IMG/VR virus record: IMGVR_UViG_3300027419_000009 | Location: 1-43,897 of that record | Length of the DNA: 43,897 bases | Direction: 5' to 3' (one strand) | From: a virus | Taxonomy: Duplodnaviria > Caudoviricetes | Shown: piece after piece, positions 2,040 to 22,170 of the stretch | How the letters are laid out: each line of letters begins with the position of its first letter | How positions within the stretch are numbered: the first letter of the stretch is position 1 | Program-made: the position numbers and the translations under genes | Notes under the pieces: generated by a model | What the model was told of the DNA's origin: nothing | The model's database searches: none | The model's input: the letters and a program-made list of their open reading frames with translations, nothing else

Positions 2040-2166
2040 ATATAGTATTGATACTCTATAAATAGGGTATGGATACCCACACTGCAATAAGTAAAGAATA
2101 AGTAAAGAATAAGTAAAGAATATAAAGGGTATTTTATAGGGTATCTATAGACTATTGATACCCTAT
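2040..2166. repeat. Origin-like iteron array A with 3x 11-bp A-rich tandem repeat
   Basis: Quasi-palindromic 9-mers ATA(G/C)N(G/C)TAT at 2051, 2062, 2136, 2147, 2158 (11-bp period); (AATAAGTAAAG)x3 at 2086-2118; 2051-2127 is the inverted copy of 21981-22057. Confidence 0.8.
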
Positions 2167-2167
2167 A

Positions 2168-4618
2168 TTATTTTTGCGGAAGATTGATCGATATTGGGTA
2201 TTCTCTCTGGGTTCCATCTGGCAGCTGGAATTTTAAGATTATAAACGGGGTATTAGTGGAAAGCTCTATATCATCACCATAGCCGCCGATCTCATAGCCG
2301 GCATAATATGAGGCGGTTTGATGGTCAACTGGATTGTCTATGAAATAGACTGACCCACCGGCAGCCCATTTAGACAGAAAAACAATCCCGGCTCCCACCC
2401 GGTCATTTACTCGGTCTAGGATCCCCTGAATTTGCGAAGTGCAATCTACCGAGACATAATGATATTCAGAATCGTTTGGGACAGAAACTGAAATAAGATT
2501 ATCTCCTGTTACATCCAGCCCGAACCATTTGTTGCTGATATAAAAATTATTTTCCCCCGGCTCTCCCGTTGAGTTTGGATTATATGTATGGCATTGTAGA
2601 TTATAATAATTTTCCGGGTCCGGTGTCGGATCCGGGACTGTAGGGGATGTTGTATCAAAAGTATAGCCCACCCAATCACCCTGAGCTGGCGGAATTGAAG
2701 CACCCCACGACCTGGTATAATGAATCCCGAAATATCCAGAGGGTCTGATTCCCCCGGGATCAATCATGCTTTTGAAACTCCATGATACCGGTCCCTGGTA
2801 ATGTAGGTTTTCCGGGTTGTAACAAGGCGACCGGAACTTACACGATGAATGGACATCGCAGGCGTTCATCTGTCCACCCCTGCGCATCGCTAAATTACAA
2901 TTTCCAGACCCGGTTCCGTTCTGATTCATACAGCCCCATAATCCAGTTTGTTCATATGCAACAATACAGGCTAGATCTACAGACGACAAGGTTGACACTG
3001 TCATTTTTATTTGCTTTGTTAAATTTATCATCTGCCCATGCCAGGATTTTGGAGACGGGCTAATGTCTTGCGTTGAATATGTCAGTCTTTGGGCTTTAGT
3101 TACTTTCGCGCTCAGGTAGGCGGTAGCTGAAACAATTGAGGCTCCGTATCCCTTCAATGCGACAAAAAAATCTATCGGCAATCTATAAATAATGGCATTG
3201 TGATATGCCCTTGTCCGGTCATAATTACCCGTTGATGGATTGAGGTAGGCGAACTCATTGGAACCCAATGGCTGACTCTCAGCCCCCCCTGCATAATAAG
3301 GCTCCCGTAGTGCATTTGAGGATGGCATCCATTCGGTCCCCCCTGAATATTCACCCCAGGGTAAATCACGGGTCGCAGTGTATTGTATTTGTTCTATGCC
3401 AGAATAATCCAATCTAACTGTATCCATAGATTTTAGGACTGTCCTAATATTCTCTATGGTTGATTTTTTGGCAAGGCTTTCCTGCGTGATGGCAGTAAAT
3501 TCGATCCGGTAACATCTCCCAGGAAGATTGTTTTTTCTTGTTTCCTGGTAAGTTTCCGTAAAAGTTATTTTCCCAGTAGTTGGGTTGATTGTGTAATCAG
3601 TCCCATGGACTAGGGTTTTATCCCCTGAAGCCCCTGAAGTGTTTTTTTGATTGATAATCCGGTCAACAATCTCAGTAACCGTTATTGTTTGGCTGGGATC
3701 GATAAATCCAGTTGAACCGATTTTAAAACTTGCGTCATCCGGGATCCCAATTTCATTTACCGTTCCAGTTTCATCCCAAAGCTCTATATAATCCAGTCTA
3801 AATTGTTTTGCAATAACAGCTACTCCATTACCGCCCTCAATTGTTAAATTTAAATTTTCAGGTTGTGATATATCAGACGGAAGATTTTGAACCTGATACT
3901 CAGCGTGATGGGCATAATTTGAGATTGCTTTTTTTATCAGGTATTTTTTCCCGATATAAGAGGAATTAGAAGGGCAGGCGGTAACCTCTAAAACATCATT
4001 CGTCTTTGCCTTGTTTTGATAATCCCATTGTCTGGCAGCTGGTTCACCTGTAGCAATATTCATCCATGGGGTTCTGCCGACTACATTACCACCCCCGTAA
4101 TATGACCATGATCCCTGAGTTTCCCCTAATAGCACCTCTTCCGGTGTCCATGAACCGCCACCCTCTTTTGCTTTCAGATATTTGATTTCTCGGCTGGATG
4201 GTTTGACCAAATATCCGCTGGAATATTGAGATTGGAAACCACCGGTTAAAACCATAGAATCAACCCAAGTCCCTATATTTATGGGCTGATAAAAAGGGCA
4301 ATCCGTTCTAATACATTTTCCAAATTGTCCCCGTGGAACTTTGATATTTTTTTCACAAGTCCAGCAATTTACATCTTCTCTTTTTGTCCCGAAAGTTATT
4401 GATCTGCCATTGGGAAAAGTTATGGTCTGCCCCGCCCTTGTCTGGCTATCGGTAGTGTCATATCTGCAATGACGGGCAACTGAATATATAAAATTAATCT
4501 CCGGATAACTCTTAACCAATTCCCCGGATTGATAAGATTCTATCATTCCGGTGGCTGGAACTCTTGCCCATACTGTCATTATGGATTTTGTTTTTTGTTG
4601 ATGGCTTATATTATCCAA
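2168..4618 (-). CDS. Large Cys-rich tail tip / receptor-binding-like protein (816 aa); in frame with the upstream ORF across one TAG
   Basis: Last gene of the tail module; beta/Gly/Ser/Thr-rich; 'LVHGTDYTINPTTGKITF' motif typical of tail proteins; Cys clusters. Confidence 0.65.
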   Translation of the reverse strand: MDNISHQQKTKSIMTVWARVPATGMIESYQSGELVKSYPEINFIYSVARHCRYDTTDSQTRAGQTITFPNGRSITFGTKREDVNCWTCEKNIKVPRGQFGKCIRTDCPFYQPINIGTWVDSMVLTGGFQSQYSSGYLVKPSSREIKYLKAKEGGGSWTPEEVLLGETQGSWSYYGGGNVVGRTPWMNIATGEPAARQWDYQNKAKTNDVLEVTACPSNSSYIGKKYLIKKAISNYAHHAEYQVQNLPSDISQPENLNLTIEGGNGVAVIAKQFRLDYIELWDETGTVNEIGIPDDASFKIGSTGFIDPSQTITVTEIVDRIINQKNTSGASGDKTLVHGTDYTINPTTGKITFTETYQETRKNNLPGRCYRIEFTAITQESLAKKSTIENIRTVLKSMDTVRLDYSGIEQIQYTATRDLPWGEYSGGTEWMPSSNALREPYYAGGAESQPLGSNEFAYLNPSTGNYDRTRAYHNAIIYRLPIDFFVALKGYGASIVSATAYLSAKVTKAQRLTYSTQDISPSPKSWHGQMINLTKQIKMTVSTLSSVDLACIVAYEQTGLWGCMNQNGTGSGNCNLAMRRGGQMNACDVHSSCKFRSPCYNPENLHYQGPVSWSFKSMIDPGGIRPSGYFGIHYTRSWGASIPPAQGDWVGYTFDTTSPTVPDPTPDPENYYNLQCHTYNPNSTGEPGENNFYISNKWFGLDVTGDNLISVSVPNDSEYHYVSVDCTSQIQGILDRVNDRVGAGIVFLSKWAAGGSVYFIDNPVDHQTASYYAGYEIGGYGDDIELSTNTPFIILKFQLPDGTQREYPISINLPQK

Positions 4619-4621
4619 TTT

Positions 4622-5887
4622 CTAATCTCCGGTAATCATATTAAAAGATTTTTCGCCCTCAGAGGGTAGCCAATTACGAAGCTCCCCGATGATATCCCCG
4701 GTAGAACCTGACCCTGTTATATAAACATTGGGATCATTGTCATCTATGAACCCTGTCGGCGCACCCAGTAGCCTATAAAAATACCCATTATCAATATGGG
4801 TAACCGAGTCCGTATCTGTCCAGAACCGCCAATAAGCCCCTGAAACATATCCAGAGGATGAATTACTAAGCTCCTGAATAAAACCCCCTTGAGCGGGAAA
4901 AGTATGGGTATCAACTTCACCCTGCCCTGGATCTCCCATTTGCGTTGCTGTCCCCATAAAATAATCCCCCAGCAATCCTACGATTGAGGGACCGGAACGC
5001 TGTGATATGACAGCCTTTGCGATAACCGTTGATTGGAGAGTTTCAATTAAAACAGAAATCTTTTTTTCTCTATACATCCACCGATTGACTATATCATGAA
5101 GGCAATTTGCAACCCTTTTAAAACCTTCATTTTCACTATCGAAATCTGGACATGATATATTTTTACATGATCCTGAATTTGTTCCCTGATATTCAGTTGT
5201 CCGGTTTTTAAGGCAGAGATTTTCCCATCCCTGACCATTACCATCCAGATCAAGATGATAATTCCAGCACCTATTTTTTTCTTTAGCTTCCAATCTGCGC
5301 CACGGGGTAGCAACATACCGCCAAACTCTAATGGAGTCTCCGGCTTTTATCATCTCCCCTGAATATCCAGCCAACTTAAATCTTTCATTATCCGGGTCAA
5401 TTTCGGAAACCCGGTAAAACCTTCCGGTAAATAATCCGCTGGTTATCTCAACAATGTCCCGAACCTGTAGCCGGGTGTAAAGAGTGTCAATACCGGCTTC
5501 CATAGCGATAGAGCTGAAATCTTCAGTAGTGTAAAACCAATCAGAACTAACATAATCAACCGTTAAATATTTCCGATATACAGAGGCATGATGGCGGTCA
5601 ATATCAAGATATCCAGAAATGGGTATCGTAACCCCTGCCTCGGTATAGTCTATGGTCAATGGAACCATACAAGACGGGACTCGGTTTACAATCCATTCCA
5701 GAGCGTCAACAACTGCCATTAATTCTTTAAATACTTTGGTTTTTATCTTGTCTGATTCTTGAGCTTCAGGAAAGGTTTTGAAATCATTTCGGATCTTGGT
5801 TTTACAAGTAGAATCTGGGCATTTACAGGAAGGCTTATAAACTAATTCAGGGGAAGTGATTTCTGTAAAATTGAATAAATGGGACAT
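4622..5887 (-). CDS. Cys-containing tail tip protein (421 aa)
   Basis: Position in tail module; N-terminal CKCPDSTC and internal C-x20-C...CxxxxC motifs. Confidence 0.6.
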   Translation of the reverse strand: MSHLFNFTEITSPELVYKPSCKCPDSTCKTKIRNDFKTFPEAQESDKIKTKVFKELMAVVDALEWIVNRVPSCMVPLTIDYTEAGVTIPISGYLDIDRHHASVYRKYLTVDYVSSDWFYTTEDFSSIAMEAGIDTLYTRLQVRDIVEITSGLFTGRFYRVSEIDPDNERFKLAGYSGEMIKAGDSIRVWRYVATPWRRLEAKEKNRCWNYHLDLDGNGQGWENLCLKNRTTEYQGTNSGSCKNISCPDFDSENEGFKRVANCLHDIVNRWMYREKKISVLIETLQSTVIAKAVISQRSGPSIVGLLGDYFMGTATQMGDPGQGEVDTHTFPAQGGFIQELSNSSSGYVSGAYWRFWTDTDSVTHIDNGYFYRLLGAPTGFIDDNDPNVYITGSGSTGDIIGELRNWLPSEGEKSFNMITGD

Positions 5888-5899
5888 TTTGAAAATCCT

Positions 5900-6256
5900 T
5901 TATTCTGCAAAGTAAAAACCGTAGCCATCTTCCCCGGTTGAGAAAGTCCCGCCCCCATATAAAAACATAAAACCGCCCGGAGTAAAGCCGATTTCAGCAA
6001 TATCGTTAGTCGAATATTCGTAACCGTTTAATGCTGTTAATGGAGTCATCAAGCAGGCGGAAACTCCCCGGCTATAAAGGTCAATCAAATAACCATCGTA
6101 TTGATTTTCACCTTGTTCATTTTTCCCCAGATAGGTTCTGATCTGGCAGATTAACCGGCGCGCTTCTCCGGATTCGCCTATGACCTTTGGCAGCTGGGAA
6201 GCAACACTATCAATATTTTTTTGGTTATGGATTATATTATCAATAATGCCCGGCAT
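5900..6256 (-). CDS. Small tail tip / spike-like protein (118 aa)
   Basis: Position after the tape-measure-like gene; N-terminal helix, beta core, Gly-rich end. Confidence 0.45.
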   Translation of the reverse strand: MPGIIDNIIHNQKNIDSVASQLPKVIGESGEARRLICQIRTYLGKNEQGENQYDGYLIDLYSRGVSACLMTPLTALNGYEYSTNDIAEIGFTPGGFMFLYGGGTFSTGEDGYGFYFAE

Positions 6257-6257
6257 A

Positions 6258-7448
6258 TTAATTCATCCCCTGATAATTGCGCTGCTCTTTATTGACATTT
6301 CCATTTGATTTATTTTTATTTTCCAAGGCAGTTATAAGTTTATCAATCCGGTAAAATAATCCAGCGTCTTCTGGGGTCATGGTCTTATTTTCCATCCGTT
6401 TTTCAGCCTCGAAAATCTTATTAGCCTGATCCGGTATGTATTGTTGCACCTTCTGCATAGCCGGCGCGTTGATCCCATAATATTTCATTAGATTTTCAGC
6501 CGACTGGTTATTGGATTGAATCTTTGATTCCCCGGCTGATAACTTATTAATCTCAGCCTCTGATTGTCTGATACCTTCCTCGGCTTGCTGCATTTCCCGT
6601 TTATTATATGCCTGAGTATTTTTTATCGCCTGTTTTTGTGAGGCTGTCAATGATTTTTCCCAATCTTCCTGTTTAACCCCTACCGGTTTTTTAGGTAATG
6701 GAATTGAAGGACTTAATATTTCCTGACCTTTTACCGCTCTCATGGCAGCTAAATTTAGAAATTGAGTCCTGTATTTTTGTTCTTGCTCAGGGGTTAGTGT
6801 TGCATTTTTTAGATTACCGACAGTCTCTTTTGACATTCCCAGAGATTCAGCAATTGACGATATATCACCGTTTAAAAATTGTTCTGCCACAGCTGAAGGA
6901 TCAGCTTTTTTTATTTTGGCTATCTGGATAACCTGTCTTATCTGATTATCAGATAACTGGCTTGCGCCTTTAACCGAGAACATTTCAGCAATTTTATCAG
7001 CCTTAATATCTTTCCCAGCTGTCTTTTTTGCAATATTTATTTTATTCTGCAAATCTTCAGGTTTAATAAACTCGCCTGAAATTGCGTTTTGTCCTAAAGT
7101 TTTCTCTTTAGCCTTTTTAAGATCATCTAATTCTCTTTTAGCTTCCTTTATTTTTGATATGAAATATTCTACACCGGATGCAGCAATTGCCCAGACTGAT
7201 AACCCAAGTCCCAGCTGTGCAACCGCCCCTGATAATGCCCTAACTGCACCCCTAGCCCCATAGACCTTTTTTCCTAATTGTCCCTCAAATTGATCGCCCC
7301 ATGATTTCGTTGCTTTTTTAGATTTTTTCTCACCATCAACCGCAGACTGTGCAACCTTATCAATATCACCGGCAGCCTTTTGCGCTCCCTGTGCAGTGTC
7401 CGGCTGAATACCAACTTTTATGTTTACATCATTATTTTGATTTGCCAT
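6258..7448 (-). CDS. Short tape-measure-like or ejection protein (396 aa)
   Basis: 'DVNIKVGIQPDT' TMP-like N-terminus, Ala/Gly hydrophobic segment (AVAQLGLGLSVWAIAASGV), helical K/Q/A-rich body. Confidence 0.6.
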   Translation of the reverse strand: MANQNNDVNIKVGIQPDTAQGAQKAAGDIDKVAQSAVDGEKKSKKATKSWGDQFEGQLGKKVYGARGAVRALSGAVAQLGLGLSVWAIAASGVEYFISKIKEAKRELDDLKKAKEKTLGQNAISGEFIKPEDLQNKINIAKKTAGKDIKADKIAEMFSVKGASQLSDNQIRQVIQIAKIKKADPSAVAEQFLNGDISSIAESLGMSKETVGNLKNATLTPEQEQKYRTQFLNLAAMRAVKGQEILSPSIPLPKKPVGVKQEDWEKSLTASQKQAIKNTQAYNKREMQQAEEGIRQSEAEINKLSAGESKIQSNNQSAENLMKYYGINAPAMQKVQQYIPDQANKIFEAEKRMENKTMTPEDAGLFYRIDKLITALENKNKSNGNVNKEQRNYQGMN

Positions 7449-7454
7449 ATTTTT

Positions 7455-9143
7455 TTATCCATTCGACAAACTTATAACCGTCTCAAATTTTATGAAATCA
7501 TGGGTTATGGATATAACATTTAATCCGGTATTAATATCATAATCTCCAATCCGTAAAGATTGAAAAATCCTTTTCATATTCACCGATTCAAATTTTTTAA
7601 TTTCATTCATAGTCCGGGTTAATTTATTTATAAGCCCCTGCCTGAATAACTCCCCATCATTAATTAATTCTGAGCTTATCATCTCATAACCAGATAAATC
7701 ACCCCCAAGATCATAGGCTGGTATGATAGCCCCGGATAATATGTATGCCCCTGGGTTGGCTGTAATTCCCTGTGTCCCGGTAACTATATAACGATAACGG
7801 GAGTCGTTTATAAATTCAATCCGTTCAAAATCTAAATGACCTTGTTTCCCAGTGTTAACCCATAGCCTTTCCGGAACTTCAAAAGTTGCTGTCAGATAAA
7901 CATCCCCCAGTTCATGAATATAATAAATTTTCCCAGTGGTCTGATTCTGGCAAAATGCAAGTTCATCATCTAATTCAATATAAACATCTTGTCCAGCTGT
8001 ATTCTGGATAAATTTAAAACCCTGAGTAACCCAAGACAGATCTTTAGTATCATAGGTTATATGACCGTAAAGATTGTTTAACCCTGTGTTATTCACCCAT
8101 AAATAGCATTTTGTCGGCTTGGCAGGATAAAGAGAATCATATAATAATTCTTTAACAACTGTCGGGTAAATTTGTCTCAGCTGCCAGTCGTCAGGTGTTG
8201 CACCGGTTTCAGAATCATAAACATCCCAAGCTGGTAAAGCCCAGCGTTGGAATACATTTTTATACAAATCTTTTTTTGTGGTTTTTAATGTAAAATTACC
8301 GTTAGTCCCAATCAAATCATTTTCAAGATCAGGATTCCAAGCCGGTATTAATTTAATGGTAGTCTCAATCCTTTTTTTAGCCCCCAGACCATACAGATGA
8401 TTAGTAACCTCAGAATAATCATAACGGATTGAACCGGAAGCGATATTGGCAGCCCCACCTTCACTATCTTTCCAATTCCTGTTTTTTTTGCCGGGGATTA
8501 ATCTAATATTAGGGTTATTCGCTGACCCGAATTTCCAGAATTCTAATTTTTGCTCTCCCCCTGCAAGGTAAAGAATCCGATGAGTAAGATTATCCTCGCA
8601 TTGCCATAAAACATCCCGAATGAAAGATCCTACTTGCTTACCCTCTGATTTTGTTTCACCCATCGTATCTGTCGGAAAAGTGTCTTTAGTCCATTGCAGG
8701 GATGTTTCAGATTTATAAAGTGCTTCTTCTATCATATCCCCAGCATTATAGCCGGTCAGGTTAACCTGAGAATAAACCTGCGAATTATACCGGTTGAACC
8801 ATGCCATCAACGGTATGTTGTTTAAATCGGTTAAATCGTTCGAGCAAATCCAAACAGTTTTTGATGGGTGTAAATCATTTTCAGGCTCCCTTAATTGCCC
8901 GGAAAAAATAGAGTTAGGGTAATGATCGCGGTCAAAATAAATTATGATAGAATCCCCTGATTTATAAGGGGAAATCTCACCAAATATATTTATAGGAAAT
9001 TCTATGGTTGCAGTATCAGGGTTCAGCCCTGCATTTAGAGAAATATTAATCAGCTTAACATTTTCGACTTTAGAACCATTGATATAAATTTCATATTCTG
9101 GCTGTCGTAAAATATCTAAATCTCCATTATTGGGTATCATCAT
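7455..9143 (-). CDS. Baseplate hub / Tal (gp27-like) tail protein (562 aa)
   Basis: Hub-like pattern: 'YEIYINGSKV..ISLNAGLNPDTATIEF..GDSIIIY..IFSGQL', 'YDYSEVTNHLYGLG', C-terminal 'LRIGD..VISITHDF..TVISLS'. Confidence 0.65.
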   Translation of the reverse strand: MMIPNNGDLDILRQPEYEIYINGSKVENVKLINISLNAGLNPDTATIEFPINIFGEISPYKSGDSIIIYFDRDHYPNSIFSGQLREPENDLHPSKTVWICSNDLTDLNNIPLMAWFNRYNSQVYSQVNLTGYNAGDMIEEALYKSETSLQWTKDTFPTDTMGETKSEGKQVGSFIRDVLWQCEDNLTHRILYLAGGEQKLEFWKFGSANNPNIRLIPGKKNRNWKDSEGGAANIASGSIRYDYSEVTNHLYGLGAKKRIETTIKLIPAWNPDLENDLIGTNGNFTLKTTKKDLYKNVFQRWALPAWDVYDSETGATPDDWQLRQIYPTVVKELLYDSLYPAKPTKCYLWVNNTGLNNLYGHITYDTKDLSWVTQGFKFIQNTAGQDVYIELDDELAFCQNQTTGKIYYIHELGDVYLTATFEVPERLWVNTGKQGHLDFERIEFINDSRYRYIVTGTQGITANPGAYILSGAIIPAYDLGGDLSGYEMISSELINDGELFRQGLINKLTRTMNEIKKFESVNMKRIFQSLRIGDYDINTGLNVISITHDFIKFETVISLSNG

Positions 9144-10385
9144 TTAATATGTTACCTCGCCAGAGATTGCCAGCGGATCGGGACTTAGACCATCCAGGTA
9201 TAAAGAGAATGTTTTTTCATTAGATTCCTCAGCATTATCAGAATTTAATGATCGGACTTTAAATAATACTGAGCCAACCGCACCGCTTTTTATGGCTGTG
9301 GTAGTGTAATAATTGGTTTTAATATTAATTGTCTGGCTAATGGATAAACTCCCGTCTAATAGCCAATTTGAGCCATTATCAAGTGAGTAATAAATATTAA
9401 ACTTAGAAATATTATAATCAAACGATTTCCATTTTAATTGTGCCATTCCCCCAGCCAATGCTTTACCTGTCAGGTCATAGGGAGATTTGGGTAATGGATC
9501 AGCCATAATAAAAGTTGAATCAATATAAAATTTTACTGTTTTTTCTTTAGAGATCATCCCGTATTTGTTCACCCCGACAACTGAGATTATCCAGTTTCCG
9601 GGCATAAAAAATAAATATGGGAAAGTAAAATCTGTTCCGGCTATAAAAGTAAGCGGCTTAGAATAATCAACCTCAGTATTTAATATTGATAGCTCTGGGC
9701 ATAGATTGGAAAAAATTAAATATCCGGCTGTATTATCTTCCGTCTTGTCCTCAGCTTCAGTTATGAGAATTGATAGGACATAATTTGAATAGAGATATTC
9801 AACCGATTCTGGACTATAGGGCAGACCTATTACTTTGATAGAAGCGATATTTGAAGCTATGCTGATATTGCCAGTCAGATCAGATCGTTTTAGAAAAAAT
9901 CTATAGGTAGCCCCATCATCCAGCGCCTGAGATTCCCAACCTGTGCTGTCAGGGTTAATAGTATCCAGTAACGAAAATGCTGATAATTCTAAGGCTGGGT
10001 TCCCGCTATCCCAATAAACAAAAATTGATTTTAAATCGGCGGTTGCGTCATTAGTCCAGCTTAATTTCAGATGGTTTCCACCAATTGGAAGGGGAGAAAT
10101 TATATTGGTATCTGTAAATGTTTCATTATCGAATGCTGGAAGAATATTAATATCTACCGGATAATCATTTCTGATATTTTGGATAGTGATATAGAAAGTC
10201 GAATCGTTAAATAAGAAAGCGCCTGATTGATATATCTTCCGATGGTATCCGGTAGTAACATCAATCGGGTATTTCATGAGATAAGAATAATATAAAATTC
10301 CATTATAAAAATCAGGGATTGACTCGTAAATCAATCCCCTTGATGGAATATTTGAACCAATTATTTTGTTTCCTAAATTGTTCAT
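9144..10385 (-). CDS. Fibronectin type III repeat tail protein (413 aa)
   Basis: About three FN3-like units (LKLSWT..YW..LDDGATYRFFLKRSDLTGNIS; PKSPYDL..LKWK..FNIYYS..FKVRSLNSDNAE). Confidence 0.7.
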   Translation of the reverse strand: MNNLGNKIIGSNIPSRGLIYESIPDFYNGILYYSYLMKYPIDVTTGYHRKIYQSGAFLFNDSTFYITIQNIRNDYPVDINILPAFDNETFTDTNIISPLPIGGNHLKLSWTNDATADLKSIFVYWDSGNPALELSAFSLLDTINPDSTGWESQALDDGATYRFFLKRSDLTGNISIASNIASIKVIGLPYSPESVEYLYSNYVLSILITEAEDKTEDNTAGYLIFSNLCPELSILNTEVDYSKPLTFIAGTDFTFPYLFFMPGNWIISVVGVNKYGMISKEKTVKFYIDSTFIMADPLPKSPYDLTGKALAGGMAQLKWKSFDYNISKFNIYYSLDNGSNWLLDGSLSISQTINIKTNYYTTTAIKSGAVGSVLFKVRSLNSDNAEESNEKTFSLYLDGLSPDPLAISGEVTY

Positions 10386-10867
10386 TTTTTAAATTTATTG
10401 AGATAATCAGAATAATACTGCATACATGAATTTATATAACGTTCTGGAATGATTTTATCATTTGGATTTCCAGAATTATAAGCGTCAAAAATATCCTGAA
10501 GCCTGAGCGTTCCACCTGCCTTCTCTTTAGCCTTTACCGCCCGATATTTGATATATTTTATTACATAGATAATTGAAGTTTCGTTATCCGCTAAACCTTC
10601 GGGAGTTCCGGTGTATCCTAACTCGCAGGCGGTCGGATACATGATCTGCCAACTCCCCCAAGAGCAACATGATTTTCTATCATATTTATCTATCATTTTT
10701 TTCATATTAGGATTTCTCCAATATGATATTTCAAACCGAGGGTTATTGTTTGCCCCTAATGTTGATTCCTGGCAGGCAATCGCATATAAAACAGCTTCAG
10801 AGTTAATGCCATTTGGTAATTTCAACAATGGCGCATTTCTTTTTATTACATCCATTATCATAAGCAA
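10382..10867 (-). CDS. Endolysin, lytic transglycosylase / lysozyme-like (SLT) fold
   Basis: AIACQES catalytic Glu motif, SWGSWQIM (GxxQ) motif, AYNSG motif. Confidence 0.85.
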   Translation of the reverse strand: MLMIMDVIKRNAPLLKLPNGINSEAVLYAIACQESTLGANNNPRFEISYWRNPNMKKMIDKYDRKSCCSWGSWQIMYPTACELGYTGTPEGLADNETSIIYVIKYIKYRAVKAKEKAGGTLRLQDIFDAYNSGNPNDKIIPERYINSCMQYYSDYLNKFKK

Positions 10868-10873
10868 ATATCC

Positions 10874-11029
10874 TTAATTGTTCAGCGTGAAAATTATACC
10901 GATGATAGTAAAAAGGATTGAGGGAATTAAAATAATAAACCAGCCTGCATTTACAAATTTTTCCATCTTTAGATAGATCAATAACATCTGAACCATCAAA
11001 ATGATTGTAACCATCAAAACATTTGCCAT
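10874..11029 (-). CDS. Small two-TM membrane protein, holin-like (51 aa)
   Basis: Not in ORF track: MANVLMVTIILMVQMLLIYLKMEKFVNAGWFIILIPSILFTIIGIIFTLNN; AGGGGG RBS; fills the gap directly before the endolysin. Confidence 0.7.
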   Translation of the reverse strand: MANVLMVTIILMVQMLLIYLKMEKFVNAGWFIILIPSILFTIIGIIFTLNN

Positions 11030-11032
11030 TTT

Positions 11033-11353
11033 TTAATCCCCCCTAATCTCATTTTTTTTAGCTGTTTCAGTAACATAAAGATTTTTCCAATATGCAGCCG
11101 ATTCTAAAAGCTGTTTCATTCTTGCCGGTGGAACGGCATAGTATCCAGAATATTCCCCGGAAGTTATTTTTTTTATCACCATATCCGAGGGGATAATGAC
11201 AACCTTAGTTTCCGGCTGTTTTATCTGAACCGTCTGAGTTACAATCGGAATTTTCGGCGCCTTGACTGTTATCAGGCTTGTCGCACAGGCTGTCAACAAT
11301 GCTATTGAGATCATCAACATTGTCAGAATTAATAGCTTTAGAAATATCTTCAT
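11033..11353 (-). CDS. Lipoprotein, o-spanin-like (106 aa)
   Basis: Signal peptide with lipobox LLTA-C, Pro-containing linker, C-terminal helix; overlaps the upstream membrane gene by 149 bp within the lysis cassette. Confidence 0.6.
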   Translation of the reverse strand: MKIFLKLLILTMLMISIALLTACATSLITVKAPKIPIVTQTVQIKQPETKVVIIPSDMVIKKITSGEYSGYYAVPPARMKQLLESAAYWKNLYVTETAKKNEIRGD

Positions 11354-12558: not shown

Positions 12559-13080
12559 TTAATCTACTCTAACCCATTTATTATTAGGCTTATATTCAAC
12601 CCATTTTATAAAATTAAATAAAACAGACAGAGAATCATTTATAAATTTTCCCTCAAAATTAATATACATCCCCTGACTATCAAACTCATGATCTTTATAC
12701 TGGAAACTAAATACTGGACTGTTTATATTGAATGAAGGATTTACAATAGTTTCAACTGCATAGGGTTCAATGAGTATCGGATATCTTTCTACATTCAGCG
12801 TAGTAATAATATCAATGATTATCTGTGTCGAATCATTATCAAAATAAATATTTTCAGTGGTAGAAATATTTTGATAAAGATATTTATAGGCAGTTGCCCC
12901 TTGATAGGTAAAAACGCAACTGGCAGAACCTAAAACATTATAAATATCATCATTGTTCCATATTTCCATGGCGTTTAAGTTGCCCCTGATATTCACCCCG
13001 TTTACTGTGGTATCAAGATCGAAAGCCTGACAGCCTGATAAAAATAATGAGACAATCAAAACAAGTAATGTTTTTTTCAT
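12559..13080 (-). CDS. Lipoprotein (about 173 aa), possible superinfection-exclusion or receptor-blocking protein
   Basis: Probable start 13080 (AAAGGGTGGTG RBS): MKKTLLVLIVSLFLSG-C lipobox; AT-rich; adjacent to the fibre-like gene. Confidence 0.65.
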   Translation of the reverse strand: MKKTLLVLIVSLFLSGCQAFDLDTTVNGVNIRGNLNAMEIWNNDDIYNVLGSASCVFTYQGATAYKYLYQNISTTENIYFDNDSTQIIIDIITTLNVERYPILIEPYAVETIVNPSFNINSPVFSFQYKDHEFDSQGMYINFEGKFINDSLSVLFNFIKWVEYKPNNKWVRVD

Positions 13081-13096
13081 ATCATCACCACCCTTT

Positions 13097-14482
13097 TTAG
13101 TCATATTTTCCAAATATCTCAAAACCATAATAGTAAACAGCTGTGGCATCTCGGTCTGTCTCTATCCATATAAAATATGTTTTATCAGAAGATAATAATA
13201 TTTTGTTTTGGCAAATTAATTCAAACGTTGGGGTAGTCCCAAAATTGGATATGCAGGTTGCAACTGTTTGAGTATTTATTATCTGTAGATCAGTCTGAAC
13301 TGATCCCTCATTTCTTTGACATACACGATAAAAAGTAGTTGATATGTCAGACGATCTTCTAACTTTCGATAAGACAGATGTAATTGAAAATGTTGAATTA
13401 TATAACCTACTAGGTATATCTATAATACATAAAGCGGTTGATTTTGTAACTGAAGATGAAAACCAAAATCCAAAATCAGAGGCTTTTGATATAGATCCGG
13501 AATATTGTTGAGCGTTTGATGCCGGAATGTATTTAATAAATGATGTTTCACTTGAATGGGTTAATTTGGCAGTTGTATCTATAACTAAATTTTTGCCATT
13601 TGGTATTTTAGTAGTATTATAATTTAGGCTTAATAATACACCATCCGCGCCATTAGCCCCCCGGATATACAGCTCATTGGAGCTTCCAGTTATCAGGTCA
13701 AGATAATTTCCATAGCTATATGATTTTAAAGCCATTCCCCTTCCAGAAGTATTTTTAAGAACCGCCAAGCTATCAGCATTTTTACTTGTAATTGTCTGGC
13801 AAGAAAATGTTGAATCAATAACCAGAGAATCGGTAATGATAATCTTAGAACTTTGCGCGCTGATTGTATTCCAACAAGTTTGATTGCCAAGGCTGGACTC
13901 ATACATATATATGCAGGAGACATTTGACCAACTGCATGGGTCCGTAAATGCCTCGTCATACCAATATAAATCAGTGATGTAACCGGTTTCCCATATAATT
14001 CCAGCGTTGGTATAACCCATATCTGGACCGGGCATATCACCATACCATTCATTTTTGGATATATTGGATGTAACCCAGCCGTTTCCCCCAGGTGTTTGTA
14101 AAAATCCTAAAAATTGAATTCCATTCATACCATGCTCGGTATCAATGGCATGAGCGAGTTGTATATCTGCATAATCACCGTCAATGACTGTTACAGATTC
14201 GGTAGTAATTACATATGTAACTCCAATATTTTCATAAAGTTCAGAGTAAACCTTTAACGCAACATTGGCAGTATCAGGCTTCCATGATTGTGGGACACTT
14301 ACCATTGACCACGGGATTGCTGAATCTTTACCCCACAGATCAGCGGCAGCATTTATATTGATTCTATCAGTTGAATCAGTTGCAGAACCAACCGACAGGC
14401 TTTCAAATCTGCCCGGAGTAAGGCAAAATGCTTGACCAATGATGAAATATATAGACAATACTAATAAGCTCTTAAATCGCAT
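13097..14482 (-). CDS. Tail fibre-like protein with N-terminal signal peptide (461 aa)
   Basis: MRFKSLLVLSIYFIIGQAFC signal-like N-terminus; S/T/G-rich beta repeats; C-terminal beta-sandwich-like domain. Confidence 0.55.
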   Translation of the reverse strand: MRFKSLLVLSIYFIIGQAFCLTPGRFESLSVGSATDSTDRININAAADLWGKDSAIPWSMVSVPQSWKPDTANVALKVYSELYENIGVTYVITTESVTVIDGDYADIQLAHAIDTEHGMNGIQFLGFLQTPGGNGWVTSNISKNEWYGDMPGPDMGYTNAGIIWETGYITDLYWYDEAFTDPCSWSNVSCIYMYESSLGNQTCWNTISAQSSKIIITDSLVIDSTFSCQTITSKNADSLAVLKNTSGRGMALKSYSYGNYLDLITGSSNELYIRGANGADGVLLSLNYNTTKIPNGKNLVIDTTAKLTHSSETSFIKYIPASNAQQYSGSISKASDFGFWFSSSVTKSTALCIIDIPSRLYNSTFSITSVLSKVRRSSDISTTFYRVCQRNEGSVQTDLQIINTQTVATCISNFGTTPTFELICQNKILLSSDKTYFIWIETDRDATAVYYYGFEIFGKYD

Positions 14483-14483
14483 T

Positions 14484-15167
14484 TTAGAATCTCCTCGTTA
14501 ATGTTTTAAGTAGTCTTATAAATCCCTGCCCAGCTTCATGATGATTTCCTGAACCTGCAATAATATAAAGCTCTTTAGCTGTCGGAATTTCCAGGTTTAT
14601 TGTTGCAGTAACTGAAGCTGACCCTTCCGGAATAGTCAGGTCATAATAGCCTACAGGGGAAGCCCCATCACATATACGGATTATAGAGCTGCCCCCTGTC
14701 GGTGGATTTAGAAGATTAATAGTAGCCGATTCTAGTTTTATCCTGGTATCCCATTTCAAACCCTGGCAGTAAACCTTACTCGACTCAATTTGGGAGGGCA
14801 GGGGAATGATAATATCTGATTGCTCCATTTGCTCTAATTCTATTTTTCTCAGCTGTGATCCCTTGGCAACATAAGAAGCGTAAAGAGTTGCTGGGAGATT
14901 AGCGCCTACCTGAATCAATCCGCGCGCCCAATCTAAAAGAATTGCCTGATCTGCGGTAATAGAACCGTATAATAAAAGATTTTCATTTAAGAGTGTGTAA
15001 CCAGTTCCAGTTTTACCTGCCCCTGTCCATAACTCTAAAGAATAGGGGTTAGGTTCATATTCTAAAAAACCTAACTTTCCGGTAATCCCTGAAGCCTGAT
15101 CAGTCCCTGAATCAAGATAAAGCAATTCATCCGATATTGTATAACCTGCGCCCTTATAATCCAGCAT
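14484..15167 (-). CDS. Tail-associated structural protein (227 aa)
   Basis: Position; two beta-rich domains; C-terminal jelly-roll-like pattern. Confidence 0.5.
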   Translation of the reverse strand: MLDYKGAGYTISDELLYLDSGTDQASGITGKLGFLEYEPNPYSLELWTGAGKTGTGYTLLNENLLLYGSITADQAILLDWARGLIQVGANLPATLYASYVAKGSQLRKIELEQMEQSDIIIPLPSQIESSKVYCQGLKWDTRIKLESATINLLNPPTGGSSIIRICDGASPVGYYDLTIPEGSASVTATINLEIPTAKELYIIAGSGNHHEAGQGFIRLLKTLTRRF

Positions 15168-15180
15168 TTAATAAGTTCTC

Positions 15181-15555
15181 CTATTCGGATAATTGCAAAA
15201 TCGACAATGAAAATGAAGCAAAATATCTTCCATCCGCTGATTTGTATATGCTGCCGTTTTGAGAAATTGCCATGATAACGCAATTACTGATATTCACAAA
15301 AGCCGATGATAAAGATCCGACAGTTACATCATCCCGTAAATCAAACCATTTTGTTTTTTCGTTCTCTAAATCTGATTTTGATGTTTTAATCATCAACATA
15401 TCATAGTTTAGAATTCTGCCGGTCTTGCCATAACTTTTAATAGCAACCCCATCGGCTGGCGGATAACTAATAATCTCTTTCTCTCTCTCAGAGCCTGTGT
15501 CAGAGATTAATTTATATACCCCTTCCCATGTATTACCAGCGAATGAAAATGACAT
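15181..15555 (-). CDS. Tube-fold / distal tail (tube-initiator-like) protein (124 aa)
   Basis: 'SYPPADGVAIKSYGKTGRILNY..GSL..NCVI..FSLSILQ' pattern resembles the GpU/Dit-type tube fold. Confidence 0.55.
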   Translation of the reverse strand: MSFSFAGNTWEGVYKLISDTGSEREKEIISYPPADGVAIKSYGKTGRILNYDMLMIKTSKSDLENEKTKWFDLRDDVTVGSLSSAFVNISNCVIMAISQNGSIYKSADGRYFASFSLSILQLSE

Positions 15556-15558
15556 TGG

Positions 15559-16005
15559 TTAAGTTCCGCTCACCAATTCTTTTTTGATTGGATTAACTCC
15601 GGCAGGGGAATAAATCCTGATCTCGAATTTCTCTGAAGCCAGCTCACCATGAGCCATAGTGTCTTCAGCTGGTCCGATAATGGCATAAACATTCGGATCT
15701 TTAGTCAGATCAAAAGAATATTTAATATAATTATTGGAATGAATTACCGGGGTTCTAATATCCAGAGAAGTAATTTTTTGATTGAATAGGGATATGAAAT
15801 CAATTCCGACAGCATTAATATCCAGGCTGATCCGGATATTGCCACCGGTAAAGAATGCGACCGATTGGGCAAGTGAATCATCATCACCGGCAGTAACTAC
15901 ATTGCCATTGATATTCCAAGTAACCCCCTTTATAAAGGTGAAGTCCTGATCCCCTATTGTAACCAGTGAAGCCCCGTTTGTAATTTGTTGCGTTGCGTTT
16001 GCCAT
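15559..16005 (-). CDS. Tail tube-like protein 2 (148 aa)
   Basis: Visible paralog of 16022-16438 (KGV..GDD..TG..KITSL.I..YAII..HGEL.SE...I.I..P). Confidence 0.65.
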   Translation of the reverse strand: MANATQQITNGASLVTIGDQDFTFIKGVTWNINGNVVTAGDDDSLAQSVAFFTGGNIRISLDINAVGIDFISLFNQKITSLDIRTPVIHSNNYIKYSFDLTKDPNVYAIIGPAEDTMAHGELASEKFEIRIYSPAGVNPIKKELVSGT

Positions 16006-16021
16006 TTTTTATACTCCTATG

Positions 16022-16438
16022 TTATGCGTCAACGAAAATTGAATCAGCTGAAGGATTAACAATCTTGATGGTAATGTTTTCGCTGGGTAATGCACCATGC
16101 TGAATCCCTGAGCTTATATCAGAGATTATCCCGTAGGCATTGGCAGCAAGGCTTTTAACCTTGGCGGTCCCACCGTTAGGCGGTTCAGCGGATATACTCA
16201 GAGATGTTATTTTAGATCCGGCAAGGGTAACAGAGTCAATGGAATCTTTATTAAAGGATATCGTTACATCCCCAGCCAGCCCAGTAATATACCCTTCCTG
16301 GACAAAACTAGCGTCATCCCCAACCTGTTCCACCCAATCCCCAGCTAAACCAACTGAAACATTTTGAACCCCTTTAAAGATTGTCCCGTTAATGGAAACC
16401 TCTTTTACATTCGCCAGCCTGACCTGTGAGAAGCTCAT
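16022..16438 (-). CDS. Tail tube-like protein 1 (138 aa)
   Basis: Follows the tail terminator; beta-rich tube-like size and pattern. Confidence 0.65.
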   Translation of the reverse strand: MSFSQVRLANVKEVSINGTIFKGVQNVSVGLAGDWVEQVGDDASFVQEGYITGLAGDVTISFNKDSIDSVTLAGSKITSLSISAEPPNGGTAKVKSLAANAYGIISDISSGIQHGALPSENITIKIVNPSADSIFVDA

Positions 16439-16440
16439 AA

Positions 16441-16911
16441 TTAAACCCCTTCTGCAATAACTCTTTTTACAGAAAATTCAATAAGAGTCATTAAATAGAT
16501 TTTATTTTTTTTATCATTTTTATCGTTAATATCAACTGTAATAGTGCCTTTAGTCGATACTGTATATGCAAAATTATTTAATTTATTGTTGTGCAATATT
16601 TTTCTTAATATTCCGGATTTCAGATATACCTCGGAAATATTGGCTGAATCGTCAAACTCACAATGATAGAATGATACTAAGCCGGTCAGTTCCACATTTG
16701 AATCATTTGAATTGTCTTCATCTCTGTCTTCCCATCCCGGAATGTAAATTCCTAATGCAGGGATAGAAGTTAAGTCAACCTTCCCGATTTCGACCCGACT
16801 GATCCCCAGCTTATTTAGATTTACAGGTTTTTCTAATTCAGCTTTTAAGGCATTGCAGAAATCCAATAAAAGATAGCCAGAATCAGTTTCATGTATTATT
16901 GAATCGGTCAT
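16441..16911 (-). CDS. Tail terminator / completion protein (156 aa)
   Basis: Synteny; 'PALGIY' motif; alpha/beta pattern typical of gpU/gp37-like proteins. Confidence 0.6.
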   Translation of the reverse strand: MTDSIIHETDSGYLLLDFCNALKAELEKPVNLNKLGISRVEIGKVDLTSIPALGIYIPGWEDRDEDNSNDSNVELTGLVSFYHCEFDDSANISEVYLKSGILRKILHNNKLNNFAYTVSTKGTITVDINDKNDKKNKIYLMTLIEFSVKRVIAEGV

Positions 16912-17513
16912 ATTGTTTCATTCAGCCCCTGAGATTGAATTAAGCGTTTATACTCTTTCTGAATATTTATTTTATTCCCGTTTTCGTCTCTGGCGGTAAT
17001 CCCATTTAGCTGTAATTCATATAACATTTGTTGCCTGATAAAAGCATGGATTTTTCTTTCGATAGCATAGATTGGAGATCCCTTACCATTCCACAAGTGC
17101 ATATAAGGGCGAGACCACATATAAACGCCACCAAATTGATGGACTCTGGCATATTTAATTATATTGGTATCAACCCCGTAGATAACAGAATAATTATCTT
17201 CTTTGATTTTATTTCCATGCGCGCCGGGTATTGTGGCAGCCCGTTTTAAAATCCCATGTAAAACTAAAATCTTTTTCCCTGGAAAATGTTTATGTTTCCA
17301 TCTGGCATATTTATCTGTTAAGGGTTGCCACCTGCGCCAATCATCCCCGATTTCACCCTCTTTAGAAAATATCTTTCTCTCTCCATAAGCAATTGATTTA
17401 ATGATATCTTTCCAAAGTGGCTTGAATTCTCCACGCTTCCCTATGTTTCCCATGTTAATCAGGGAAGCCCTGAACTGTGGGATACCGAATTGAGATATTG
17501 TTATTGTCAGCAT
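16908..17513 (-). CDS. Virion morphogenesis protein (Mu gpG / phage tail S family)
   Basis: WQPLTDKY..K..KILVLHGIL..G.D..KYARVHQFGG..RPYM motifs. Confidence 0.85.
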   Translation of the reverse strand: MLTITISQFGIPQFRASLINMGNIGKRGEFKPLWKDIIKSIAYGERKIFSKEGEIGDDWRRWQPLTDKYARWKHKHFPGKKILVLHGILKRAATIPGAHGNKIKEDNYSVIYGVDTNIIKYARVHQFGGVYMWSRPYMHLWNGKGSPIYAIERKIHAFIRQQMLYELQLNGITARDENGNKINIQKEYKRLIQSQGLNETI

Positions 17514-18295
17514 AAATCAATGCGCCCCTTCTCTATACCAACAATGCCCTTCCCATCATAAATAAATTCTGCCTTTTCATTATAAATAGGCTTACCGATA
17601 ACCGTTGCTGTTTCGGTTTCGGTAACCTCAGTGACAATGATTTCCCCTGATAAAATTTTAGAGATCATAGACTCTGCATATTCATTCCAAGCGTTTACCG
17701 ATTCATAATCAGAATCAGATTGACGGATCATAAACAGGTCGGAAAATATTCTAAAAGCAGTTCCGCGCTTGATGATCTCAAGGATTGTCCCATCAATATC
17801 AACCCCTGTTTCCCCTGTTTTTGCTGGAAAAGTTAGGCTGACAACTTTCCGCAATCTTGATATTAAATAGGCTAGATAGTCATCCAAATAATTTTCTAAA
17901 TCGTTTTCTGTAAGATCCGTGCTGGTAGTAAAAGATATGGTCTCTCCATTAACCGGGATACCAACCCATGCAGTTTTTGGGATGGTTATTAATTCATCGG
18001 GTGTAACATAATCAACCGTTATAGCAGAATCCCCCAGCAATTGCGATCCGTGATCAAGATAACCGGGGGATTGTTGCACCAATTTGCCATAAATTTCTGT
18101 TTCGCCGGAAGCCACTGAGATAATAAAATCATATCTATATGATCCCTTGAAAGTGCTGGATAAAGTAATTCCAGACAGCCGGGAATCCCCTGAATAGCTC
18201 ATTATCTGGGCAGTGTTACCAATCCCGATTTTTTTTGATGTTACATTGAGAATCAGTTTGATTTTAGATACTAGATCGGTATATAGATATGCCAT
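17507..18295 (-). CDS. Head-tail adaptor (Mu gp36-like) with an inserted beta domain (262 aa)
   Basis: C-terminal helical adaptor pattern (LENYLDD..YLISRL..TFP..ILEII..AFRIF..YAESMISKILSGEI); about 100-aa extra beta segment. Confidence 0.6.
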   Translation of the reverse strand: MAYLYTDLVSKIKLILNVTSKKIGIGNTAQIMSYSGDSRLSGITLSSTFKGSYRYDFIISVASGETEIYGKLVQQSPGYLDHGSQLLGDSAITVDYVTPDELITIPKTAWVGIPVNGETISFTTSTDLTENDLENYLDDYLAYLISRLRKVVSLTFPAKTGETGVDIDGTILEIIKRGTAFRIFSDLFMIRQSDSDYESVNAWNEYAESMISKILSGEIIVTEVTETETATVIGKPIYNEKAEFIYDGKGIVGIEKGRIDLC

Positions 18296-20617: not shown

Positions 20618-21079
20618 TTATTTAATCTCCTGTTTTTTACCGAATATTTTATTCACGCCCTCAGAAGCAAGTTTATCTAATCTGGCTTCCCTTTCTTCAG
20701 GCGATTCAGATAAAGTTTTTCCGGTATCTGTTTTCGATAATTGCTTAAAAAGTTTTGTAACTTCATCCCCGCGTTTATCAAACATAGTGATAAAAGATTC
20801 TACCGGATCAACCTGAGTTTTGATTTCAGTTCCATCGGCAGCTTTAGAGAGAGTTATAATCTTACCCGATTCATCAAAATCACTCTCAACAATCTTTTTT
20901 AATCCTTCAGCTTCCACTGGAAGTATTTTTCCCTGAGCGGATAAAACATCAATTTTACTAAGCAGCTTGGTCTTTCTTTCTGCTAACTTTCCCGTTTCAA
21001 TCGTTTTGGAAAGTTCAATGTTTTTTTGTTTCAATCGCTCATTTTCTTCCTGAATTTTTTTCATTTCTTCAGGGGTCAT
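20618..21079 (-). CDS. Nested in-frame scaffold protein (153 aa, Mu gpZ-like internal start)
   Basis: Internal AAAGGCGGTG RBS before ATG 21079 (MTPEEMKKIQEE...), at the protease/coiled-coil boundary. Confidence 0.6.
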   Translation of the reverse strand: MTPEEMKKIQEENERLKQKNIELSKTIETGKLAERKTKLLSKIDVLSAQGKILPVEAEGLKKIVESDFDESGKIITLSKAADGTEIKTQVDPVESFITMFDKRGDEVTKLFKQLSKTDTGKTLSESPEEREARLDKLASEGVNKIFGKKQEIK

Positions 21080-21826
21080 AGTTTGATCATCACCGCCTTT
21101 ATCGGATTTATTGGAATATAAATCTTTGGATAAAAAATACATTTTTCCATTTTGAGATAAATAAACAGGCTCATTGAGAACCCCACCTAATGCTGGAAAG
21201 TTTGTAAAACTCAACTCAAATAAAACGGGTCCGAGCGATCCCTTCACCGGATGAATAAAATCATCAACCAAACCAGGTGAAACATAGGAAAATTTCTTAT
21301 CTTCAACTATCAGTTTTTTTCCTTCCTCAGAGAAATTCGGAAGGGCTAAAAGAGTCAACATCCCTGATTCATCGGTTGAAAGTTTTATATCTGTAACCTG
21401 ACCGTAAGAACCAAGCCCCCTGTTATGCTCGAGCAAAATAGAAGTTTTTATATCCGTCTCAAATTTTTTGAAATTATCATAGAGGGACTGAATATAATTT
21501 TTAGAAAATTCTATCACCCCATATTTATCGGTTTTAAATTTTCCCTCTCTCAATACTTCAATCCAGCCTGAATTATCAGACTTTGAGAGTGTTATATATT
21601 CCGGGTAATGAAAATTTATAACTTGGTCAGAATTATTGACGTTTTTAACATATTCCCCCTGATCGTTTAGAAAATACCCAATTTCAGCCCATGCAGCGGA
21701 TTCAGCTTTTTTATCATCTAAAAATTTATCCACCCAATAATTAAAATAATTCATCCATGATTCGGATTGATAAAGAGTAAGTGCTTGAACCTCATTAGGT
21801 AATTCATCGATTTTGGTAAATTTCAT
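20618..21826 (-). CDS. Prohead protease / scaffold (Mu gpI-like)
   Basis: 'WIEVLREGKF', 'LEH', 'FSYVSP', 'LFELSFTNFPAL' protease motifs; coiled-coil C-terminus. Confidence 0.85.
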   Translation of the reverse strand: MKFTKIDELPNEVQALTLYQSESWMNYFNYWVDKFLDDKKAESAAWAEIGYFLNDQGEYVKNVNNSDQVINFHYPEYITLSKSDNSGWIEVLREGKFKTDKYGVIEFSKNYIQSLYDNFKKFETDIKTSILLEHNRGLGSYGQVTDIKLSTDESGMLTLLALPNFSEEGKKLIVEDKKFSYVSPGLVDDFIHPVKGSLGPVLFELSFTNFPALGGVLNEPVYLSQNGKMYFLSKDLYSNKSDKGGDDQTMTPEEMKKIQEENERLKQKNIELSKTIETGKLAERKTKLLSKIDVLSAQGKILPVEAEGLKKIVESDFDESGKIITLSKAADGTEIKTQVDPVESFITMFDKRGDEVTKLFKQLSKTDTGKTLSESPEEREARLDKLASEGVNKIFGKKQEIK

Positions 21827-21930
21827 ATCAACCTCAAATTTTTAATTAACTCTGTTATATCAGATTGCATCATAAAAAATCAAAATATTATTTTCTAATA
21901 TTTTTTTAAAAAAGTATTCTAAAAAATAAT

Positions 21931-22170
21931 ATAGAGTATCAATACACTAAAGATAGAGTATCTATACTCTATCGTAAAGGCTTTATATTCTTTACTTATT
22001 CTTTACTTATTCTTTACTTATTGCAGTGTGGGTATCTATACCCTATTTATACAGTATTGATAGAGTATCTATAGAGTATTTAAGTTTAATAATTTAAATA
22101 TTATAAGTAAATTTTATTATCTAAGATCTAGATATAAGAATAGGGTATAGATAGACTATCCATACCCTAT
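21931..22170. repeat. Origin-like iteron array B (inverted relative to array A)
   Basis: 9-mers at 21931, 21953, 21964, 22038, 22049, 22060, 22071, 22140, 22151, 22162 (11-bp period); (CTTTACTTATT)x3; AT-rich 22080-22140. Confidence 0.8.

What the first reader, a model, noticed from the sequence alone, without database searches (positions are those of the whole stretch)
2040..22170. Two inverted origin-like iteron arrays bracket the whole 20-kb capsid-tail module
Seen: 2051-2127 and 21981-22057 are reverse complements at 75/77 positions. Each contains (AATAAGTAAAG)x3 and sits among quasi-palindromic 9-mers ATA(G/C)N(G/C)TAT phased every 11 bp, next to AT-rich DNA. They lie about 19.9 kb apart one way and 23.8 kb the other on the 43.77-kb circle, and their A-rich ends face each other across the protease-to-tail-tip genes. 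Established: lambdoid-type initiator systems normally have one iteron origin. Inference, possible functions: (a) two strand-specific or unidirectional origins; (b) a flip-flop substrate that could invert the structural module or convert theta to double rolling-circle replication, as with the 2-micron plasmid repeats; (c) initiator-bound sites that loop or gate late transcription, since array B lies directly upstream of the capsid operon and array A ends it. I recognise no site-specific recombinase, so any inversion would need the phage Exo/Gp3-like/SNF2 proteins or host RecA.
Basis: partly seen in the sequence, partly recalled or inferred. Interest (0 to 1): 0.85.

Follow-up and report, generated by a model that had tools for sequence, protein, structure and literature searches.

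The report
Twin inverted phage replication origins
An uncultured groundwater phage lacks the repeat array that most close relatives carry inside their replication-starter gene and instead has two back-to-front copies of it between genes, on either side of its head-and-tail genes; they likely act as a pair of replication origins, one starting the copying fork and the other likely stalling it, much as proposed for Bacillus phage SPP1.

Summary
In detail: 75/77 inverted identity, and sequencing-run contigs show two copies. The 9-mer ATA(G/C)N(G/C)TAT at 11-bp pitch is the repeat family of this phage's initiator type (35553-36374). A DNA-only search hit initiator homologues in 81 of 120 viral loci, and 77 of 80 homologues carry the array inside the gene, typically before an A-rich tract. 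This gene has none; two full copies lie between genes instead. Three other phages also pair an iteron-less initiator with an outside array, but only one each. SPP1 is the precedent for two origins, and its oriR sits just after portal and minor-head genes, as array B does. SPP1's pair is direct and one copy is intragenic. No second inverted module was seen in 166 other records. Inversion is unsupported: no recombinase was found and all genes lie on one strand, but isomers could not be tested. The scan has reported SPP1-like twin arrays on other DNA. Verdict: new variant of a known design; binding and firing are inferred.

The parts
2051..2127 (+). Array A shared core (last proximal iterons, linker, A-rich tract)
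   Evidence: 75/77 with reverse complement of 21981-22057; 56-nt contig at double depth
2040..2081 (+). Array A proximal iterons at 2040 (weak), 2051, 2062, 2073 (partial), 11-bp pitch
2086..2127 (+). Array A A-rich tract (AATAAGTAAAG)x3, predicted unwinding element; points into the head-tail module, against transcription
2136..2166 (+). Array A distal iteron triplet, 63 bp from the last proximal unit; directly after the stop of the 816-aa gene
1969..2039 (-). Sigma-70-type promoter (TTGACA-17-TATATT, 1997-1969) with an A/T tract, next to array A; twin at 540-512 has no iterons
21981..22057 (-). Array B shared core; same orientation relative to transcription as the intragenic arrays of relatives
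22027..22079 (-). Array B proximal iterons at 22071, 22060, 22049, 22038, 22027 (partial)
21981..22022 (-). Array B A-rich tract, predicted unwinding element
21931..21972 (-). Array B distal iterons at 21964, 21953, 21942 (weak), 21931
22080..22139 (.). A/T spacer; lies in the least stable 100-bp window of the genome (starts 22043)
22140..22170 (.). Extra iteron triplet of array B, right after the portal stop; also folds as a 15-bp RNA hairpin
35553..36374 (-). Replisome-organiser (initiator) gene, predicted winged-helix N-terminus; no internal iterons
   Evidence: phrog_6251 E 4e-33; fold; no doublet at up to 3 mismatches
34874..35617 (-). DnaC/IstB-type helicase loader
   Evidence: phrog_50 E 2e-45
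36494..40206 (-). Recombination block: SMC-like AAA protein, Gp3-like protein, Cas4-like exonuclease
33522..33956 (-). Holliday junction resolvase
   Evidence: phrog_190 E 1e-13
22183..24438 (-). Portal fused to a Mu_F-type minor head domain, just upstream of array B
   Evidence: PF06074 and PF04233
20618..21826 (-). First gene of the bracketed module, weak head-maturation protease match
   Evidence: phrog_976 E 1e-4
2168..4618 (-). Last gene of the bracketed module (816 aa, likely tail tip or fibre; unassigned)
   Evidence: position inferred

Best explanation
The two arrays are complete copies of this phage's likely replication origin, located between genes rather than inside the initiator gene and set in opposite orientation; one likely starts a replication fork and the other, held by the initiator, would stall it and trigger the switch to concatemer synthesis. 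Shown: the repeat family, its layout, its absence from this gene and the two inverted copies. Inferred steps: (1) initiator dimers bind the quasi-palindromic 9-mers one helical turn apart through the winged-helix domain; (2) the A-rich tract melts and the DnaC-type loader delivers a host helicase; (3) the fork runs from iterons towards the A-rich side (polarity recalled from lambda, untested here), so B fires along with transcription through the head-tail genes; (4) after 19.9 kb it meets initiator-bound A facing it and stalls; (5) the phage exonuclease, resolvase and host or phage strand exchange restart it as a rolling circle for packaging, as proposed for SPP1 oriR. Which copy starts and which blocks is not established.
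For: DNA-only pattern search: 81 of 120 viral loci hold a homologue of this initiator. Protein-only search: 77 of 80 best homologues have the doublet inside the gene, with 3 stray outside hits in 1.07 Mb. Layout iterons then A-rich tract is shared: A fraction 0.60 after versus 0.42 before in 71 distinct arrays, and 0.57 and 0.60 in arrays A and B. The window gene has no such repeat. G097, G155 and G159 likewise have iteron-less initiators and one outside array 7-9 kb away. Both copies look selected: distal clusters keep the 63-bp offset and 17 of 18 ATA/TAT positions but only 3 of 13 other positions. SPP1 has two initiator-bound origins with a fork-stall model (PMC6316719, PMC3485210, passages); its oriR lies between gene 7 and gene 8, right after portal and minor head, like array B.
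Against: No binding or replication data. The repeat is not universal in the protein family: only 32 of 80 best homologues from prokaryote genomes carry it, and two records matching 84% of the initiator length have no such doublet anywhere in the DNA scanned. The window protein sits on a long branch (1.2) of a quick tree; its group (18 of 19 other rows with the repeat) has support 90, below the starred level. No close relative exists to show conservation of the two-copy layout. Four-fold-site skew is near zero in both arcs and shows no inflection. SPP1's own fork-stall role for oriR is worded as a proposal in the passages read.
Confidence: 0.6

Rival explanations
1. Both arrays are initiator-bound, but they are simply redundant origins (each can start replication, perhaps bidirectionally) with no barrier or switch role.
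For: Both copies carry the full layout with identical spacing; nothing marks one as crippled.
Against: A second site is rare in this repeat family: 3 of 166 records, none an inverted full module, so one origin normally suffices; B occupies the SPP1 oriR position.
Confidence: 0.17
2. One array is the origin and the other is a regulatory initiator site: a titration or handcuffing site, or an operator that represses the promoter at 1997-1969 or gates read-through into the capsid operon.
For: A lies about 40 bp upstream of the -35 box of an 11/12 promoter; B lies between portal and capsid operon with no promoter better than 9/12; triplets after both stop codons fold as hairpins. G028 has three extra intergenic triplets besides its intragenic array.
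Against: An operator would not need the A-rich tract kept at full identity in both copies; the twin promoter at 540-512 has no iterons.
Confidence: 0.12
3. The 56-77-bp cores recombine and flip the 19.9-kb module, giving two isomers or reversing a fork into double rolling-circle amplification as in the yeast 2-micron plasmid (model recalled).
For: Inverted geometry; perfect 56-nt core beside diverged flanks could reflect gene conversion; the phage has recombination genes. An SPP1 mutant with a large inversion is viable (PMC6316719, passage).
Against: No tyrosine or serine recombinase. All genes are on one strand. The record is a single closed circle with a 127-nt overlap, longer than the repeat, which suggests one dominant isomer (inference). 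SPP1 keeps the same block at 42 of 48 between direct-orientation origins.
Confidence: 0.07
4. The 9-mers are bound by another phage protein, such as the ribbon-helix-helix-like products of 27992-28669 or 40351-40566, as a centromere-like or operator array.
For: 27992-28669 has structural look-alikes among ribbon-helix-helix clusters over residues 117-225 (below the naming bar); such proteins bind phased repeats (recalled).
Against: The repeat tracks the initiator family across unrelated phages; no partition ATPase was identified; the ParB_N gene sits beside a glycosyltransferase.
Confidence: 0.04

Closest known systems
Bacillus phage SPP1 oriL/oriR with replisome organiser G38P and loader G39P (PMC6316719, PMC3485210, PMC5737612, PMC5615212; passages read)
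   Same: Two distant modules of phased repeats plus an A-rich tract; initiator and loader genes adjacent; one module right after portal and minor-head genes; the block shared by the two modules is the last repeat plus the A-rich tract; exonuclease and resolvase present.
   Different: SPP1 oriL is inside gene 38 and the pair is in direct orientation, 12.9 kb apart, 42/48 identical. Here both are intergenic, inverted, 19.9/23.8 kb apart and 75/77 identical. The repeat differs, G38P shows only a 39-residue weak match (E 0.011), and no phage helicase of the DnaB type was identified.
DnaD-like replisome organisers of phrog_6251 type (for example Geobacillus virus E2 and Listeria phage LP-030-3) with intragenic iterons
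   Same: N-terminal domain about 35-50% identical; same 9-mer at 11-bp pitch followed by an A-rich tract.
   Different: Relatives normally carry one array in frame in the linker of the gene; this gene has none and the genome has two outside copies. I found no paper testing binding to this 9-mer.
Yeast 2-micron plasmid FRT/Flp amplification and Mu G-segment inversion (recalled, not read)
   Same: Inverted repeats dividing a circle into two unequal arcs.
   Different: No site-specific recombinase here; the repeats are themselves origin-type modules; no second isomer shown.

Membership tests
Phage iteron origin of the phrog_6251-type initiator family | Initiator homologue followed by a helicase loader | tested here: met
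Phage iteron origin of the phrog_6251-type initiator family | ATA(G/C)N(G/C)TAT units at 11-bp pitch followed by an A-rich tract | tested here: met
Phage iteron origin of the phrog_6251-type initiator family | Array inside the initiator gene | tested here: not met
   also not met in G097, G155, G159
Phage iteron origin of the phrog_6251-type initiator family | Initiator binds the repeats and melts the A-rich tract | not testable with these tools
   needs EMSA, footprinting, unwinding assay
SPP1-type twin origins (oriL/oriR) | Two distant repeat-plus-A-rich modules in one phage genome | tested here: met
SPP1-type twin origins (oriL/oriR) | One module inside the initiator gene | tested here: not met
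SPP1-type twin origins (oriL/oriR) | Direct relative orientation | tested here: not met
   SPP1 direct; window inverted
SPP1-type twin origins (oriL/oriR) | One module in the gap after portal and minor-head genes | tested here: met
SPP1-type twin origins (oriL/oriR) | Fork stalling at the second module and recombination-driven switch to concatemers | not testable with these tools
   recombination genes present; no replication data
Recombinase-driven invertible segment (2-micron Flp/FRT, Mu Gin type) | Encoded tyrosine or serine site-specific recombinase | tested here: not met
   PF00589 and PF00239 absent in six frames, controls rang in 14 and 12 of 14 genomes
Recombinase-driven invertible segment (2-micron Flp/FRT, Mu Gin type) | Both isomers present in the population | tested here: inconclusive
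   only contigs broken at the 56-nt core were available
Ribbon-helix-helix centromere or operator array | Cognate ribbon-helix-helix protein plus partition NTPase | tested here: inconclusive
   look-alike for 27992-28669 below the naming bar; no partition NTPase named

The most novel reading that the evidence does not exclude
The two opposed origins are a device aimed at the structural genes: both fire inward, re-copying the 19.9-kb head-tail module to raise late gene dose, or they recombine during replication to reverse a fork and drive recombinase-free double rolling-circle amplification in a tailed phage.
Probability: 0.1. Interest if true: 0.85.

Novelty: new variant of a known kind. Interest (0 to 1): 0.45.

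Why it matters
It ties a widespread phage initiator family (479 relatives in a partial scan) to a specific repeat code, so origins can be predicted even when they have left the gene. It also offers a natural test of the SPP1 proposal that a second initiator-bound origin triggers the switch to concatemer synthesis: here the second copy faces the other way, so orientation dependence can be tested directly. The phage is uncultured with no close relatives, which limits how soon this can be done.

Tried and rejected
Misassembly: rejected by double depth of the 56-nt contig, though run X1 may be the source of the record. Close relatives: none by protease, capsid or portal searches; best capsid relatives are 28-34% identical and their alignment was too divergent to seed a locus search. 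The A-rich repeat alone gave one unrelated-looking viral hit without 9-mers nearby; a core pattern in metagenomes found only this contig. No RNA holder listed. No Rfam family or tRNA; hairpins in the arrays follow from the palindromic units (z -4.1 for B, -1.8 for A). Whole-sequence GC skew has no inflection and four-fold-site skew is near zero in both arcs: uninformative. Module versus outer-arc depth is 51.3 versus 54.8, giving no sign of module amplification in that one sample; contig depth is a weak measure. G097's two arrays belong to two separate prophage-like regions in direct orientation; G161's are 750 bp apart. No solved-structure relative by sequence; Foldseek gave only winged-helix matches at E above 0.001; the wide fold search did not run. 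Literature searches for inverted twin phage origins or double rolling circle in phages returned nothing relevant, in an open-access library only.
Full report
1. The observation. The window is a complete circular virus record of 43,770 bp with a 127-nt terminal overlap; all long reading frames lie on the minus strand. Positions 2051-2127 and 21981-22057 are reverse complements at 75 of 77 bases. The perfect core is 56 nt, against a maximum of 20 nt in 30 simulated genomes, and exact 9-mers number 17 against 3.2 expected. In run X1, which may be the source of the record, the genome falls into three contigs: 19,913 nt at depth 51.3, 23,865 nt at 54.8 and the 56-nt core at 99.8. The repeat is therefore present twice. 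Because the contigs break at the core, they cannot tell which flanks are joined. Terminase and portal lie outside the bracket; protease, decoration, capsid, neck and tail genes lie inside.

2. Anatomy. Each array reads: four or five 9-mers at 11-bp pitch, a short linker, (AATAAGTAAAG)x3, then a distal cluster of three or four 9-mers that begins exactly 63 bp after the last proximal unit in both copies. In the first 31 bp of the distal clusters the copies agree at 17 of 18 ATA/TAT positions but 3 of 13 others (counted), which suggests selection on both. Array B has a further triplet at 22140-22170 beyond a 60-bp A/T spacer that lies in the least stable 100-bp window of the genome. Array A adjoins a near-consensus promoter at 1997-1969 whose twin at 540-512 has no 9-mers.

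3. What the repeat is. A scan of viral contigs for three phased 9-mers, using no protein information, returned 120 loci (16 of 64 parts scanned, about 480 estimated). Of these, 81 hold a homologue of the N-terminal domain of 35553-36374, nearly always with the array in frame just behind it. Conversely, of the 80 best of 479 protein-found relatives, 77 carry a doublet (up to 2 mismatches) inside the gene, and only 3 single doublets lie outside in 1.07 Mb. In 71 distinct arrays the tract after the repeats is A-rich (0.60 versus 0.42 before), as in arrays A and B. The window's gene has no doublet at 3 mismatches and no other notable internal repeat. The protein matches phrog_6251 and is followed by a DnaC-type loader; its model has a confident N-terminal domain whose best, weak, fold matches are winged-helix proteins. 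Three other records show the same exchange: the initiators of G097, G155 and G159 lack the repeat and an array lies 7-9 kb away between genes (4 of 18 records queried with the initiator profile matched, the fourth being G028, which has the intragenic array). Against full certainty: among the 80 best of 369 homologues in prokaryote genomes only 32 carry the repeat and none of the other 48 has an outside array in the flanks held; two records matching 84% of the initiator length lack it; and the window protein's place in an 18-of-19 repeat-bearing group rests on a long branch in a quick tree of 108 rows (rows over 85% identical or under 140 aa were dropped).

4. How common are two copies. Whole-record searches for exact doublets covered 116 records (3 loci not held) and 50 more (15 of its 91 loci were not searched). 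Comparing record counts with in-locus counts, 3 of 166 have a further site: G028 (short intergenic triplets), G097 (two separate prophage-like regions, direct orientation) and G161 (750 bp apart). Sixty records are at least 90% complete; only G097 is among the three. None was seen to have an inverted full pair. Degenerate second arrays would be missed. The phage has no close relative to test conservation.

5. Comparison with SPP1. Passages of PMC6316719, PMC3485210, PMC5737612 and PMC5615212 describe two origins of direct repeats plus an AT-rich element, both bound by G38P, unidirectional initiation at oriL inside gene 38, and a proposed stall at oriR that triggers recombination-dependent concatemer synthesis. 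I read passages only and did not open supplements, where the fork direction is reported. In the SPP1 record the gene 38 block recurs at 4901-4948, between gene 7 and gene 8, at 42 of 48 identity on the same strand, 12.9 kb away on the circle. So array B is the positional counterpart of oriR, and keeping the last repeat plus the A-rich tract alike in two origins has a precedent without inversion. The differences are that neither copy here is intragenic and the two are opposed.

6. Mechanism. Most likely the initiator coats both arrays. B has the family's usual orientation relative to transcription. If forks leave towards the A-rich side (recalled from lambda, untested here), B sends a fork along with transcription through the head-tail genes to meet initiator-bound A after 19.9 kb, and the stalled fork is restarted by the phage exonuclease and resolvase as a rolling circle. 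I put initiator binding at about 0.85-0.9 and this start-and-stall reading at 0.6. Skew gives no help. Flipping lacks a recombinase and would turn the head-tail genes against the terminase-portal genes, but a minority isomer is not excluded.

7. Novelty. Twin initiator sites are known from SPP1, and this scan has reported them on other DNA, including an inverted pair with one intragenic copy (e1-2699674; not checked by me). My SPP1 reading was noted before those look-ups. What is new here is that both origins have left the gene and face each other as near-identical complete modules; searches of the open-access library found no description of this. New variant of a known kind; interest 0.45.

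Noticed in passing
window 1969-2039 and 512-570: Two identical near-consensus promoters (TTGACA-17-TATATT) with A/T tracts on the minus strand, 1457 bp apart, likely early promoters.
   Followed up: partly
window 22183-24438: Mu-type portal fused to a Mu_F minor-head domain in one 751-aa frame.
   Followed up: no
window 26355-29302: Glycosyltransferase (TAGT), ParB_N, a 225-aa protein with ribbon-helix-helix-like C-terminus and an HD hydrolase just before the terminase genes; likely a DNA-modification cluster.
   Followed up: partly
window 2168-18295: Tail region almost without database matches and with no long tape-measure gene; 6258-7448 (396 aa) is the best candidate.
   Followed up: no
window 40351-40566: Small basic protein that looks by eye like an AT-hook plus ribbon-helix-helix regulator; no family match.
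   Followed up: partly
G097 51948-52044 and 113425-113613 (L211, L129): Prophage-like regions with the origin array moved next to the integrase gene while the initiator lacks internal repeats.
   Followed up: partly
G028 positions 1, 2682, 6390, 8797 (L128): An intragenic array plus three short intergenic triplets, suggesting regulatory use of the initiator sites.
   Followed up: partly
L318, L328, L352, L364, L371, L379, L390, L391: A group of related phages with a long array plus A-rich tract outside any clear gene; the five of their records tested had no match to this initiator profile.
   Followed up: partly
L309 29433-30359 and L310 9158-10006: Initiators matching 84% of the window protein's length have a different repeated peptide in the linker, suggesting a second repeat code in the family.
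   Followed up: no
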